A DNA stretch of 64,000 nucleotides from Escherichia coli (GTDB lineage Bacteria; Pseudomonadota; Gammaproteobacteria; Enterobacterales; Enterobacteriaceae): the NCBI RefSeq assembly GCF_044324875.1, contig NZ_CP172185.1, one strand, 5' to 3'. Below the pieces are notes generated by a model, which saw only the letters and a program-made list of their open reading frames with translations, searched no databases and was not told where the DNA came from. Each line of letters starts with the position of its first letter. Position 1 is the stretch's first letter. Made by a program: the position numbers and the translations under genes. Below, piece after piece: positions 45,395-48,424 of this stretch.

Positions 45395-45745
45395 TCACTT
45401 AAGCCGTTCACGGGCCGTCTTCGCCTTATGGCACGGCCAGCACAGACTCTGCATATTACTGTCGGCATCAGTGCCACCATGTGCTTTAGGGATGATGTGG
45501 TCAACGGTTTTCGCTTCACGCGCCACACCAGCACGCAGACATAACTGACACAGGCCTTTGTCACGTTGCAGCACACGCACACGGATAACATCCCACTTAG
45601 AACCATAACCGCGCTGATGACGGGATTGTCCAGGTTTGTATTGCTTCCAGCCTTCGCTTTTGTGGCTTTCGCAGTAGCCTGAAGGGTCCGTGGTTGTAGA
45701 GCGGCAGCCGCGAACACGGCAGGCTTTTGGGGTTCGTGGGGGCAT
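45395..45745 (-). CDS. HNH endonuclease (terminase-associated)
   Basis: 116 aa; Cys pairs plus HxxxxxH-type motif (DHIIPKAHGG...CWPCH); immediately upstream of terS. Confidence 0.85.
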   Translation of the reverse strand: MPPRTPKACRVRGCRSTTTDPSGYCESHKSEGWKQYKPGQSRHQRGYGSKWDVIRVRVLQRDKGLCQLCLRAGVAREAKTVDHIIPKAHGGTDADSNMQSLCWPCHKAKTARERLK

Positions 45746-45876
45746 CCAATCACCTCTTAAATTATTACTATAGTTCTATCTATAACTTCGCAAATAAAAA
45801 TACCGGAGAACTAATCATCAAAAAAGATAATTAGTTCAACCAGCATTAATAATATGGAATATCCAGACAATCTATT

Positions 45877-46332
45877 TCATTTTAAATCTATATATAACAT
45901 TTTCCCTGCAAGCAAGGCCAATTCTGATTTAAAACCCTTTCCGGCCAAGAAAGCCATTTGAAGTTCTCGTAAATTATCCATGGTTTTAGAAATATCATCA
46001 TTTGAGTTAGATGATAGATAAATATTGCACCTAGATTGCAATTCATTAAAGGCTCTGATAATCAACTTTCTATTAACATAACCTTCATCATTTTCTAAAT
46101 TCTTTGGCATAGAAATCAAAGTATTATTATACTCAATGATAGCATCCATCAATTTCAATTTTTTGTCTTCATTATACTGTTTTTTCCATTGCCCTAATGC
46201 GAGAAAACCCACAATCCCTGCGAACAAAGTAACTCCAATACTCGCCAGACTCACAAGAGCAGAAAATTTAGCCCAAAATGCAGCATCTCTGTTAGCTACA
46301 AGAGTTTCATAAGCAATATAAGTAGCGTCCAT
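45877..46332 (-). CDS. Hypothetical membrane-anchored protein (cargo gene A1)
   Basis: 151 aa; single N-terminal TM helix; strong SD (gaggtg) 4-5 nt upstream of ATG; AT-rich; no recognisable family. Confidence 0.55.
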   Translation of the reverse strand: MDATYIAYETLVANRDAAFWAKFSALVSLASIGVTLFAGIVGFLALGQWKKQYNEDKKLKLMDAIIEYNNTLISMPKNLENDEGYVNRKLIIRAFNELQSRCNIYLSSNSNDDISKTMDNLRELQMAFLAGKGFKSELALLAGKMLYIDLK

Positions 46333-46451
46333 TTACACCTCACTTTATTTTAGAGGTGATTATAGCAAATTACATTCAATCAGGGCTGTACAGTTTTTTA
46401 TCAATTATACTTCGCCATCTCGCTATTATATAACAATATCTTTACATATTG

Positions 46452-47078
46452 ATGGCGTGCCAGCACAATACTGTCACGTACAACCATTCGGATTACTCAG
46501 AGAAAAGTATGATTCAGGATTTACTGATCGAAGCAATTAGTCACGATAGGATGCATAAAAAGTTAAATGAACTGAATTGCTACTTCTACAATCGCAAACA
46601 TGAAACACAAATACGTGATGAGTTAGTTGTTATAATCAATCAAATCAGCACACTAACTGCTTTAAGTGAGCATCCAAAACTCGGTATCGGCGCTGTTGAC
46701 ATATCACTTTATAACCAGTCGATATTGACGCCTGAACATAATGGCAATGTTGCAACCATCGAGATAAAACATCATTACCCAAAAGATTTGCTTTATCGGC
46801 AGGTTCAAGAAGATATCACTTCCGATATTTCAAGAGTAATAGTTTCACCAACTACACACTTTATCCATATAATCCAGCAAAGAACCAGAATTAAAACTCC
46901 TTCTTTTGGTCAAGTGAAATTCCTTGAACGTGATGCAAGTGATATCAGCACTTATGTGCAATATCTTGAGGAGCTAAGTTCATTTCCCAGTAATTTTCAT
47001 AAAAAAAGTGTATGTATTGAGGTAATTGGTGAAATTATGTCGACATATACCTTTAACGTATATTCATTTGACAACTGA
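46452..47078 (+). CDS. Hypothetical protein (cargo gene A2), divergent from A1
   Basis: About 190-209 aa; ORF begins TTG 46449 / ATG 46452, alternative start ATG 46509 (MIQDLLIEAI...); AT-rich; no recognisable family. Confidence 0.5.
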   Translation: MACQHNTVTYNHSDYSEKSMIQDLLIEAISHDRMHKKLNELNCYFYNRKHETQIRDELVVIINQISTLTALSEHPKLGIGAVDISLYNQSILTPEHNGNVATIEIKHHYPKDLLYRQVQEDITSDISRVIVSPTTHFIHIIQQRTRIKTPSFGQVKFLERDASDISTYVQYLEELSSFPSNFHKKSVCIEVIGEIMSTYTFNVYSFDN

Positions 47079-47099
47079 TTAAACTGTCAATTTTATTGC

Positions 47100-47357
47100 T
47101 TAATGGTTAGTTCTCTCTGAATCTATTTTACGAATGTCAGCTTTATCTCGATTGCAGTTAGCCAGCGCAGACAACAGACTCACATTCAACTCCAGACTAG
47201 CACCATACGTCAGCGGATTAGGTATAAACGGTACAGGAGTATCAGAAGTCAGGCTGGCTGGCAGTGGTGCCACCGGAGCGCTCACGTAAACCGTCCGCGA
47301 ATTTCCGCAACCGGTCAGCAGCGGCAGCAGGCACATGACGTGAAGCACAATCATCAT
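47100..47357 (-). CDS. Rz1-like outer-membrane spanin (lipoprotein), overlapping Rz in another frame
   Basis: Internal Met of ORF 47100..47585 followed by lipobox LLTGC and Pro-rich mature part. Confidence 0.6.
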   Translation of the reverse strand: MMIVLHVMCLLPLLTGCGNSRTVYVSAPVAPLPASLTSDTPVPFIPNPLTYGASLELNVSLLSALANCNRDKADIRKIDSERTNH

Positions 47358-48097: not shown

Positions 48098-48424
48098 TTA
48101 CTCCTTAGAGCCACCAAACTTATTACCGATTACTCTCATTGCAGCCCCACGAATAGCATCGACACCGATCAGCCCCACCCCACCACCAATGGCAACAGAA
48201 AGCGATTTAGGCCATCCGACATACTCAAGAGCGGATGCAAAAGTCAGCGTCAGAGCGCCACAGAGTAGAATTTCGAGTGTTTTTCGCTTCCAGCCACCAC
48301 CACCGCCAAAATAGGCAATGCGCAAGCCAGCCATAACGATCGACATAATCACTGCGCCCAGTGGTGTGTCTCCACGCCACCAGCTCTGGACCAACTCCAG
48401 CCAGGTATTTGGGTTATGAGGCAT
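48098..48424 (-). CDS. Holin
   Basis: 108 aa with hydrophobic segments and charged C-terminus; immediately upstream of endolysin. Confidence 0.7.
   Translation of the reverse strand: MPHNPNTWLELVQSWWRGDTPLGAVIMSIVMAGLRIAYFGGGGGWKRKTLEILLCGALTLTFASALEYVGWPKSLSVAIGGGVGLIGVDAIRGAAMRVIGNKFGGSKE

What the first reader, a model, noticed from the sequence alone, without database searches (positions are those of the whole stretch)
45746..47099. Divergent AT-rich gene pair between the HNH/terminase module and Rz1
A1 (45877..46332, minus; single N-terminal TM anchor) and A2 (46452..47078, plus) are divergently transcribed from a 116-bp AT-rich intergenic region containing an inverted repeat (cacctc...gaggtg). 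They lie where lambda carries bor, another moron hotspot. Neither protein resembles a structural or lysis protein, and the composition is clearly foreign to the flanking genes.
Basis: partly seen in the sequence, partly recalled or inferred. Interest (0 to 1): 0.65.

Follow-up and report, generated by a model that had tools for sequence, protein, structure and literature searches.

The report
Two independent prophage cargo genes
The AT-rich stretch between the lysis and DNA-packaging genes of this E. coli prophage is a swap-in cargo slot holding two unrelated, separately mobile genes, an uncharacterised restriction-enzyme-like nuclease and a small membrane protein, which are probably candidate anti-phage genes rather than a two-gene system.

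Summary
The ORFs, the GC drop (about 0.30-0.38 against 0.52-0.59) and the inverted repeat are real, and the interval 45746-47099 is exactly the part that differs between SfV-like prophages. The "divergent pair" reading does not hold. A1 and A2 travel separately: of 77 viral contigs with an A1 relative only 2 carry A2, and both are the window's own arrangement. A2 otherwise occurs alone or with unrelated small ORFs. A2 most likely starts at 46509 (189 aa). It founds a rare family with no Pfam, PADLOC or NCBIfam match. Its confident model resembles EcoRV/SwaI-type restriction endonucleases, and K30, E32, D64, E85 and K87 are invariant. It has no linked methyltransferase and lies antisense to the late operon. 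Distant relatives sit in defence-island-like neighbourhoods. A1 is a membrane-anchored helical bundle. This layout recalls IS10 fold-back inhibition, which would allow translation from A1's own transcript but not from late read-through RNA. Both genes are under purifying selection (dN/dS 0.10-0.17). Anti-phage roles are inferred, not shown.

The parts
45746..47099 (.). Variable cargo interval of an SfV-like prophage, between the HNH start codon and the Rz1 stop codon
   Evidence: Homology to SfV, SfIV, vB_EcoM-689R6 and strain 300033 ends at 45745 and resumes at 47092-47143. The interval is empty or holds other cargo in relatives. GC is 0.30-0.38.
45877..46332 (-). A1: 151-aa membrane-anchored helical protein (transmembrane segment about residues 24-46, then a helical bundle), in the same orientation as the late operon
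   Evidence: ORF. Hydropathy. Model pLDDT 85.9 with helices 3-74, 86-108, 112-129 and 135-147. The family is restricted to Enterobacterales and has no known function. dN/dS is 0.10-0.15.
46336..46341 (-). A1 Shine-Dalgarno sequence (GAGGUG in the mRNA), which forms the 3' arm of the leader hairpin
   Evidence: Read from the sequence. The pairing is conserved across 29 family loci.
46353..46358 (-). Anti-SD 5' arm of the leader hairpin (CACCUC in the mRNA)
   Evidence: 86% of cells are paired against about 50% in slid controls. There are 13 double-sided changes (0 of 500 shuffles reach this).
46359..46367 (-). -10-like hexamer TATAAT (46364-46359) with an upstream TG (46367-46366), directly abutting the hairpin's 5' arm. 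Putative promoter of A1.
   Evidence: TAnAAT is nearly invariant across 29 family loci and sits 30-33 nt before the AUG. Promoter activity was not tested.
45790..45847 (-). Terminator-like long hairpin plus U-tract just after the A1 stop codon
   Evidence: The fold of 45775-45880(-) gives -33 kcal/mol, z = -6.09. Only 7 of 29 family loci have a comparable element.
46383..46408 (+). Remnant of the 3' end of a displaced 111-aa cargo gene (PHROG 14397), marking the junction between the A1 and A2 cassettes
   Evidence: The alignment with UPEC_U013 becomes homologous from about 46383, inside the end of WP_001089763.1.
46441..46469 (+). Promoter-like site TTTACA-17-CACAAT upstream of A2
   Evidence: Consensus scan (not enriched over shuffles). 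It is conserved with the E. coli 111-aa+A2 version. More distant A2 loci carry a TATAAT about 40 nt upstream instead.
46509..47078 (+). A2: 189-aa stand-alone PD-(D/E)xK (restriction-endonuclease-like) protein, antisense to the late operon

Best explanation
The interval is a cargo slot at the lysis/packaging junction of an SfV-like E. coli prophage. It holds two unrelated single-gene cassettes that arrived separately, not a two-gene system.

A2 (46509-47078, + strand) is a free-standing PD-(D/E)xK endonuclease of an uncharacterised, rare family. It is transcribed against the late operon. I infer that it is made in the lysogen, is silenced by converging late transcription during lytic growth, and acts as a methyltransferase-independent, restriction-like nuclease on incoming foreign DNA. 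How it would tell self from non-self is unknown. Modified DNA or an infection-specific DNA structure are the obvious candidates.

A1 (45877-46332, - strand) is a membrane-anchored helical-bundle protein lying in the late-operon direction. It carries its own -10-like box, which directly abuts a conserved hairpin that buries its Shine-Dalgarno sequence, and a strong terminator-like hairpin follows the gene. I infer a fold-back-inhibition logic like that of IS10. Transcripts starting at A1's own promoter would begin after the 5' arm and be translatable. Late read-through transcripts would contain both arms and be translationally silent. A1 would then be a lysogeny-only membrane protein, most plausibly for superinfection exclusion or abortive infection.

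Shown: gene structure, independent mobility, slot variability, the nuclease fold and motif, the conserved hairpin, and purifying selection. Inferred: promoter use, expression state, nuclease activity, and the anti-phage role.
For: Slot variability and exact boundaries.

Independence of A1 and A2:
- A2 homologues in Enterobacter prophages lie next to a 72-75-aa ORF with no A1.
- A1 homologues occur alone between the spanin and TerS genes in Enterobacter, Citrobacter, Serratia and Salmonella phages with different packaging modules.
- Only 2 of 77 A1 loci have A2.
- Of 55 A2 loci, about 30 have the 111-aa ORF, 2 have A1, and several are solo.
- A remnant of the 111-aa gene lies between the two.

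A2 as a nuclease:
- The model has pLDDT 93.6.
- Distant AFDB matches are annotated as restriction endonuclease, PD-(D/E)XK or Mrr.
- The only invariant residues in 41 diverse members are K30, E32, D64, E85 and K87, an E...D...ExK pattern.

No methyltransferase linkage: the SfV-type methyltransferase is present in only about 8 of 21 A2 prophages and is absent from the window.

Defence-like company:
- Kiwa occupies the neighbouring slot in this same prophage.
- Remote A2 relatives sit next to DUF2779/Cas4-like nucleases, WYL regulators, IetA-like ATPases, DarT-NADAR and Hydrolase-TM proteins.

A1 leader:
- The TAnAAT box is conserved 30-33 nt before the AUG.
- RNAalifold independently predicts the CCUC/GAGG core.
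- The 8-bp helix is 86% paired against 43-53% in slid controls. Its covariation score is 0.352 against 0.285 (1 of 500 shuffles reach it). It has 13 double-change cells (0 of 500).
- Predicted SD accessibility is 0.04 in read-through RNA against 0.35 from the predicted own start site, higher in 24 of 26 loci (p = 2e-6).
- The terminator-like hairpin has z = -6.1.

Both genes are under purifying selection, dN/dS 0.10-0.17.
Against: - There is no experimental or annotation evidence for any function. Neither protein hits PADLOC, Pfam or NCBIfam.
- The catalytic geometry was not inspected in 3D.
- Promoter calls are consensus-level only, and the region's promoter-like count is not above shuffles.
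- The -35 element of A1's putative promoter is weak, and no transcription start site is mapped, so the fold-back logic depends on an assumed start about 7 nt after the -10.
- One A2 relative (L021) lies in the same direction as the terminase gene.
- A1 relatives are positionally very conserved after the spanin genes, in late-gene orientation, which would also fit a late or lysis accessory role.
- The terminator after A1 is not general in the family.
Confidence: 0.55

Rival explanations
1. A1 and A2 form one divergently transcribed two-gene system. One example would be a membrane sensor or anchor plus a nuclease effector, sharing the intergenic control region. That would be a split version of a membrane-bound nuclease such as SNIPE.
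For: They are adjacent and divergent in the window and in at least six other assemblies with the same arrangement (L014-L017; L039/L040). A membrane protein plus a nuclease is a plausible division of labour, and SNIPE shows that membrane localisation can give self/non-self discrimination (PMC13190303).
Against: Co-occurrence is limited to one nearly identical (99-100%) arrangement. Of 77 A1 loci, 75 lack A2. About 50 of 55 A2 loci lack A1. No complete E. coli genome among 5426 has A1 next to A2. The junction carries a remnant of a displaced gene. The inverted repeat is part of A1's own conserved leader and is found in loci without A2.
Confidence: 0.06
2. A2 is the toxin or effector of a toxin-antitoxin or abortive-infection module. 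The small upstream ORF (111 aa in E. coli, 72-75 aa in Enterobacter) would be its antitoxin or immunity protein.
For: A small ORF on the same strand lies directly upstream of A2 in most loci. The 111-aa protein is acidic (sequence), which would suit a nuclease inhibitor.
Against: The upstream ORFs are unrelated to each other. The 111-aa ORF also occurs next to A1 without A2. A2 is intact and under purifying selection in the window, where the 111-aa gene is deleted. A2 is solo in other prophages. There are no PADLOC or TA-family hits.
Confidence: 0.1
3. The genes serve the phage's own lytic cycle rather than the host's defence. A2 would be a selfish free-standing homing-type endonuclease or a recombination or host-DNA nuclease. 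A1 would be a late, lysis-associated or membrane accessory protein.
For: A1 relatives always follow the spanin genes in late-gene orientation, in many lambdoid phages. A2 relatives always sit at the lysis/terminase junction, once co-oriented with the terminase gene. PD-(D/E)xK homing endonucleases and resolvases exist (own knowledge).
Against: Both genes are absent from close relatives that are viable phages (SfV, SfIV). A2 is antisense to the late operon in nearly all loci. The flanking genes differ between contexts (P27-type TerS plus HNH, Terminase_2, Sf6-type), so there is no common homing target. A1's SD is buried precisely in the read-through (late) RNA, the opposite of what a late protein needs.
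Confidence: 0.2
4. A2 is the endonuclease of a classical type II restriction-modification system. Its methyltransferase would lie elsewhere in the prophage or host, for example the SfV orf48-type methyltransferase next to the holin gene, or the phage N6-adenine methyltransferase.
For: The best structural matches are type II enzymes. Many SfV-like prophages carry a methyltransferase beside the holin gene.
Against: That methyltransferase is present in only about 8 of 21 A2-bearing prophages. In the window, Kiwa replaces it. The window's N6-adenine methyltransferase reads as frameshifted. No methyltransferase lies within 5 kb in the Enterobacter contexts.
Confidence: 0.05

Closest known systems
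EcoRV/SwaI-type PD-(D/E)xK type II restriction endonucleases
   Same: A2's predicted fold matches best R.SwaI, BglI, EcoRV, BamHI, HincII and SfiI. The family's only invariant residues form an E...D...ExK pattern, with spacing like EcoRV's E45/D74/D90-x-K92 (the EcoRV numbering is from my own knowledge). Its size (189 aa) is within the range of small type II enzymes.
   Different: There is no detectable sequence similarity to any solved structure. There is no cognate methyltransferase. It sits in a prophage moron slot, and no recognition specificity is known.
Solitary (type IV-like or other methyltransferase-independent) defence nucleases carried by prophages and satellites
   Same: It is a single nuclease gene without a methyltransferase, sits in a variable prophage hotspot, is AT-rich and is oriented against phage late transcription. 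Distant AFDB matches include Mrr-type annotations.
   Different: No modified-base reader domain was detected, it matches no PADLOC model, and activity and targets are untested.
Lambda bor and classical morons of lambdoid phages (HK97/HK022 definition)
   Same: The map position is the same, after Rz/Rz1 and before the packaging genes. The genes are present in some relatives and absent in others, have a deviant base composition, and carry promoter-like and terminator-like elements around single ORFs.
   Different: There is no similarity to Bor: no Pfam or PHROG hit to it and no lipobox. Two cassettes are stacked in one slot.
IS10/IS50 fold-back inhibition of transposase translation in read-through transcripts
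   Same: An inverted repeat pairs the ribosome-binding site with an upstream segment. The element's own -10 overlaps the 5' arm, so only externally initiated transcripts can form the hairpin (the IS10 mechanism is from my own knowledge).
   Different: Here it sits in front of a phage cargo gene embedded in the late operon, not a transposase. The transcription start is predicted, not mapped.
Prophage defence genes placed just upstream of the packaging module (Tai; TerI in Listeria) and SNIPE
   Same: The genomic niche is the same. [quoted passage not shown] SNIPE shows that a nuclease can defend without a methyltransferase (PMC13190303).
   Different: There is no sequence relationship. tblastn of A1 and A2 against 50,697 phage records finds only one Salmonella phage relative of A1 and nothing for A2. 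The mechanisms of those systems (tail assembly, terminase, injection-coupled cleavage) are not indicated here.

Membership tests
PD-(D/E)xK nuclease superfamily (A2) | Restriction-endonuclease-like alpha/beta core fold | tested here: met
PD-(D/E)xK nuclease superfamily (A2) | Conserved acidic/lysine catalytic motif (E)...D...(D/E)xK | tested here: met
   K30, E32, D64, E85 and K87 are the only invariant columns in 41 sequences down to about 20% identity. Their 3D arrangement was not inspected.
PD-(D/E)xK nuclease superfamily (A2) | Metal-dependent nuclease activity | not testable with these tools
   Needs a biochemical assay.
Type II restriction-modification system | Cognate methyltransferase genetically linked to the endonuclease | tested here: not met
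   No methyltransferase lies beside A2 in any context. The SfV-type methyltransferase is present in only about 8 of 21 A2 prophages and absent from the window.
Type IV (modification-dependent) restriction enzyme | Solitary nuclease plus a domain that reads modified bases | tested here: inconclusive
   The solitary condition is met. No reader domain is recognisable (no Pfam hit). The N-terminal helices 2-25 are of unknown role.
Known anti-phage defence systems (PADLOC-DB v2) | Profile match of A1 or A2 to a catalogued defence protein | tested here: not met
   Both proteins match 0 families at E <= 1, while the neighbouring KwaA/KwaB score 1.9e-83 and 2.3e-150 in the same call.
Moron (independently acquired prophage cargo unit) | Present in some members of a phage group and absent at the same site in close relatives | tested here: met
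   The site is empty in SfV, has no gene in SfIV, and holds other cargo in other E. coli prophages. The boundaries are exact.
Moron (independently acquired prophage cargo unit) | Own promoter and terminator, with expression from the repressed prophage | tested here: inconclusive
   A1 has a conserved -10-like box and a strong terminator-like hairpin. A2 has consensus-level promoter-like sites. No expression data are available.
Two-gene divergent operon or system (A1+A2) | Conserved co-occurrence of the two genes across diverged loci | tested here: not met
   Only 2 of 77 A1 loci and 2 of 55 A2 loci carry both, and all are 99-100% identical to the window. None of 5426 complete E. coli genomes does.
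Toxin-antitoxin pair (A2 plus upstream small ORF) | A conserved cognate partner that is always retained with the toxin | tested here: not met
   The partners are unrelated (111 aa versus 75 aa). The partner is deleted in the window and absent in solo loci.
Fold-back inhibition (IS10-type insulation from read-through) | Hairpin that sequesters the ribosome-binding site, supported by covariation | tested here: met
   RNAalifold predicts the core. 86% of cells are paired against about 50% in slid controls. Covariation is reached by 1 of 500 shuffles and the double-change count by 0 of 500.
Fold-back inhibition (IS10-type insulation from read-through) | Own transcription start lies inside or after the 5' arm, so only read-through RNA folds back | tested here: inconclusive
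   The conserved TAnAAT abuts the 5' arm in 26 of 29 loci, and predicted SD accessibility is 0.35 against 0.04. The start site itself is unmapped.
Lambda Bor lipoprotein family | Sequence similarity to Bor and a lipoprotein signal peptide | tested here: not met
   Neither protein has a Pfam or PHROG match to Bor. The A1 N-terminus has no lipobox (sequence).

The most novel reading that the evidence does not exclude
A2 founds a previously undescribed family of single-gene, methyltransferase-independent PD-(D/E)xK anti-phage nucleases. Its non-enterobacterial relatives would work with DUF2779/Cas4-like nucleases under WYL control. A1-type cassettes would be a widespread class of lysogeny-only membrane exclusion proteins that use an IS10-like fold-back hairpin to stay silent in phage late transcripts. 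That would be a general way for morons embedded in the late operon to avoid harming their own phage.
Probability: 0.3. Interest if true: 0.65.

Novelty: new member of a known kind. Interest (0 to 1): 0.45.

Why it matters
Prophage hotspots are a productive place to find new bacterial immune genes. This slot sits next to a Kiwa-carrying slot in the same prophage and delivers two compact, testable candidates with no match in current defence catalogues. A2 would add a very small (189 aa) stand-alone restriction-like nuclease whose self/non-self rule is unknown. The A1 leader suggests a simple, general mechanism by which cargo genes inside a phage late operon can be expressed in the lysogen yet kept off during the phage's own lytic growth. 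Both ideas can be tested with a few plasmids, a phage panel and 5'-end mapping. If neither gene shows a phenotype, the finding remains an ordinary example of mosaic prophage cargo.

Tried and rejected
- Pfam, NCBIfam and PADLOC scans of A1 and A2 gave nothing. PHROGs gave only 'unknown function' families.
- Sequence searches of solved structures with A2 profiles gave nothing meaningful.
- tblastn of A2 against 50,697 phage records found no match.
- Folding the window's inverted repeat alone was not significant (z = -1.06). It became informative only with homologues.
- The sigma-70 and terminator consensus scan of the interval was not enriched over shuffles and missed both the A1 -10 box and the long hairpin.
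- The fold search for A1 gave only uncharacterised relatives. DUF4760 and chemoreceptor four-helix-bundle matches had E of about 0.3 and were discarded.
- The unrelated 168-aa ORF at the same slot in vB_EcoM-689R6 is not an A1 relative. The ORF upstream of a remote A2 relative (L022) is not a paralogue.
- Rfam gave no credible hit.
- Literature and supplement searches for the protein accessions found nothing. The DUF2779 literature does not link it to defence.
- A terminator after A1 is not a family-wide feature, so I do not claim it as part of the cassette's definition.
- The idea that the SfV-type methyltransferase protects against A2 was rejected on distribution.
Full report
**1. What is there**

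The window carries an SfV-like, HK97-type prophage of E. coli. It is integrated next to ybhC.

On the minus strand the late operon runs in this order: Q-like antiterminator (50189-50551), holin (48098-48424), endolysin, Rz/Rz1 (to 47100), HNH endonuclease (45395-45745), P27-type small terminase, large terminase, portal (annotation of relatives).

Between the Rz1 stop codon and the HNH start codon lie 1354 bp with GC 0.30-0.38, against 0.52-0.59 in the flanks. Two ORFs are present as described: A1 at 45877-46332 (-), 151 aa, and an ORF on the + strand ending at 47078.

Homology to SfV, SfIV, vB_EcoM-689R6 and E. coli strain 300033 ends exactly at the HNH ATG (45745) and resumes at 47092-47143.

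**2. The slot is variable**

- In SfV the Rz1-HNH gap is 26 bp. In SfIV it is about 290 bp with no gene.
- vB_EcoM-689R6 has an unrelated 168-aa ORF there. Strain 300033 has a 93-aa ORF.
- I queried 5426 complete E. coli genomes with the two flanks joined, and 709 genomes matched at least 80% of the query. In a sample of these, the interval is empty (about 40-50 bp) or holds a 111-aa ORF plus A2 (1177 bp), a KilA-N protein, a DUF6979 protein or other hypothetical proteins.
- In 79 genomes only the A2 half of the window's insert is matched (about 94% identity), and in the two loci inspected A2 follows the 111-aa ORF (WP_001089763.1). None carries A1.

The position corresponds to bor in lambda (own knowledge of the lambda map).

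**3. A1 and A2 are not a pair**

- A2 homologues (59-73% identity) in Enterobacter, Citrobacter, Klebsiella, Yersinia and Pectobacterium sit between the lysis genes and the small terminase of other lambdoid prophage types. They lie on the strand opposite to the late genes. They are preceded by an unrelated 72-75-aa ORF or by nothing, and have no A1.
- A1 homologues (64-72% identity, and a 160-185-aa branch at 25-40%) sit alone after the spanin genes and before TerS, in late-gene orientation. They occur in Enterobacter, Citrobacter, Serratia and Salmonella phages with lambda-like, P22-like and other packaging modules.
- Of 77 IMG/VR loci with an A1 relative, only two carry A2, and both are 99-100% identical to the window. 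One carries a homologue of the 111-aa ORF.
- Of 55 IMG/VR loci with an A2 relative, about 30 have the 111-aa ORF plus A2, 2 have A1 plus A2, one has the 75-aa ORF, and several are solo.
- Homology between the window and the E. coli "111-aa + A2" version begins at about 46383, inside the last ~25 bp of the 111-aa gene. The A1 cassette therefore replaced most of that gene.
- The window's arrangement recurs in a few metagenome or SRA assemblies (L014-L017).

Three cargo genes (A1, the 111-aa ORF and A2) thus shuffle in pairs at this junction.

**4. A2**

All full-length homologues start at the methionine encoded at 46509. PGAP annotates 189 aa, and PHROG 12494 matches residues 20-208 of the longer reading. 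I therefore place the start at 46509.

The family is rare. A profile search found 42 representatives among 1.84 billion clusters. It has no Pfam, NCBIfam or PADLOC match.

In an alignment of 41 members down to about 20% identity, the only invariant residues are K30, E32, D64, E85 and K87, in the contexts N-x-K-x-E, (A)VD(L)S and IE(L)K.

I conclude that A2 is a PD-(D/E)xK, restriction-endonuclease-like protein with an intact catalytic signature. The activity itself is inferred.

dN/dS against homologues is 0.10-0.17.

No methyltransferase is linked. The SfV-type methyltransferase beside the holin gene occurs in only about 8 of about 21 A2-bearing E. coli prophages, and in the window Kiwa replaces it. 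The window's phage N6-adenine methyltransferase reads as frameshifted.

The upstream small ORFs are unrelated to each other and dispensable, since the partner is deleted here and absent in solo loci. A toxin-antitoxin reading is therefore weak.

Three remote relatives with enough flanking DNA all lie next to a DUF2779 protein with a Cas4-like N-terminus. WYL regulators, IetA-like AAA ATPases, a DarT-NADAR gene and a PADLOC "Hydrolase-TM" protein are nearby. This is a defence-island-like neighbourhood.

Promoter-like elements precede A2: TTTACA-17-CACAAT at 46441-46469, conserved with the E. coli version. More distant loci carry a TATAAT about 40 nt upstream instead. These are consensus matches only.

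**5. A1 and the inverted repeat**

A1 has one hydrophobic segment, about residues 24-46. Five lysines follow it in the next 20 residues, against two basic residues before it. By the positive-inside rule this suggests a cytoplasmic C-terminal domain (inference).

The model (pLDDT 85.9) shows a long helix at 3-74 followed by three helices, that is, a membrane-anchored helical bundle. Fold search finds only uncharacterised Enterobacterales proteins.

On the minus strand it reads TATAAT-CACCUC-(11 nt)-GAGGUG-UAA-AUG. The 3' arm is A1's Shine-Dalgarno sequence. The 5' arm starts immediately after a perfect -10 hexamer that is preceded by TG.

Across the 42 distinct upstream regions of A1-family genes, the same layout recurs in most. 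In 26 of the 29 I aligned, a nearly invariant TAnAAT box lies 30-33 nt before the AUG. It is followed at once by a segment complementary to the SD region, with arm sequences that change together:

- CACCUC / GAGGUG
- UAACUUCAC / GUGAGGUUA
- UAUCUCAU / AUGAGGUG
- AUUCCCUU / AAGGGAAU
- UUAGCCC / GGGGCUAA

On a plain MAFFT alignment of 29 sequences, RNAalifold predicts the core helix. An 8-bp helix is paired in 86% of cells against 43-53% when the partner is slid by 1-3 columns. Its covariation score is 0.352, against 0.285 in shuffles (1 of 500 reach it) and about 0.08-0.15 in slid controls. It has 13 cells with changes on both sides (0 of 500).

A sigma-70 start site normally lies about 7 nt after the -10 (established knowledge). 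A transcript from this box would therefore begin after the 5' arm. Partition-function folding predicts the SD to be 4% unpaired in read-through RNA and 35% unpaired in RNA from the predicted own start. It is higher in 24 of 26 loci (Wilcoxon p = 2e-6).

This is the geometry of IS10 fold-back inhibition (own knowledge). It would make A1 translatable from its own promoter but silent in the Q-antiterminated late transcript, which must cross A1 to reach the HNH and terminase genes.

A very stable hairpin with a U-tract follows the A1 stop codon (45847-45799, -33 kcal/mol, z = -6.1). It looks like a terminator that would protect the packaging genes from A1 transcription in the lysogen. Comparable elements occur in only 7 of 29 family loci.

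A1 is under purifying selection, dN/dS 0.10-0.15.

**6. Interpretation**

Both cassettes look built for "on in the lysogen, off in the lytic cycle". A2 would achieve this by antisense placement against strong late transcription, and A1 by SD sequestration in read-through RNA. Several further points fit the same reading:

- the foreign composition
- the swap-in/swap-out distribution
- the Kiwa system in the adjacent Q-holin slot
- the defence-like neighbourhoods of remote A2 relatives
- the published placement of other prophage defence genes just upstream of the packaging module (PMC11364771; see also TerI)

The best-supported reading is therefore two independent lysogen-benefit or anti-phage morons. 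A2 would be a methyltransferase-independent restriction-like nuclease. A1 would be a membrane exclusion or abortive-infection protein.

None of this is shown experimentally. The rivals are weighed in the report sections: a true two-gene system, a toxin-antitoxin module, a lytic-cycle function, and a type II system with a distant methyltransferase.

**7. Novelty and score**

The kind of thing, cargo genes in a prophage hotspot, is well known. The two protein families are uncharacterised and absent from defence catalogues. The conserved -10/anti-SD/SD leader of A1-type cassettes seems not to have been described, although my literature search was limited.

I rate it a new member of a known kind, with interest 0.45.

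Noticed in passing
window 48756-50167 (+ strand; ORFs 48756-49277 and 49283-50167): A second AT-rich island between the Q-like antiterminator and the holin gene encodes a complete Kiwa defence system (KwaA 1.9e-83, KwaB 2.3e-150 in PADLOC). In related prophages the same slot holds a DNA methyltransferase, an NYN-domain protein or other cargo.
   Followed up: partly
window about 53080-53729 (- strand): The phage N6-adenine methyltransferase matches its E. coli homologue in two pieces that meet at 53469 in different reading frames. This indicates an apparent frameshift, either a pseudogene or a sequencing error.
   Followed up: no
L033 4613-6555; L035 3962-6621; L037 262-4419: Remote A2-family members in non-enterobacterial metagenome contigs lie beside DUF2779 proteins with a Cas4-like N-terminus, twice directly downstream on the same strand. 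WYL regulators and IetA-like AAA ATPases are nearby. This may be an undescribed multi-gene nuclease system.
   Followed up: partly
A1-family loci, about 40-75 nt upstream of the start codon (e.g. L099, L101, L102, L112 at 2925-2960): Many A1-type cassettes share a conserved block GCAGGCATTCACTGAGTGCCTGTGATAATGC, containing an imperfect palindrome (GGCAyTCA...TGAGTGCC), upstream of the -10 box. The window's copy is truncated inside it at the junction with the 111-aa gene remnant. It might be an operator or the end of a terminator.
   Followed up: no
L001 5691-6026; L009 5569-5901: The acidic 111-aa protein (PHROG 14397) is a third independent cargo gene of the same slot. It pairs with A2 in E. 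coli and with A1 in Enterobacter. Its function is unknown, and an anti-restriction or DNA-mimic role is conceivable.
   Followed up: partly
L168-L170 (IMG/VR contigs), around 3501-3614 in L168: In three viral contigs A2 is cut after codon 38 and followed by a second copy of the HNH and small-terminase genes. This suggests recombination between two related prophages at this junction.
   Followed up: no
window 47068-47099 (+ strand): A short inverted repeat, ttgaca (47068-47073) / tgtcaa (47085-47090), spans the A2 stop codon and is followed by ttttatt. It may be a weak intrinsic terminator for A2, facing the end of Rz1.
   Followed up: no
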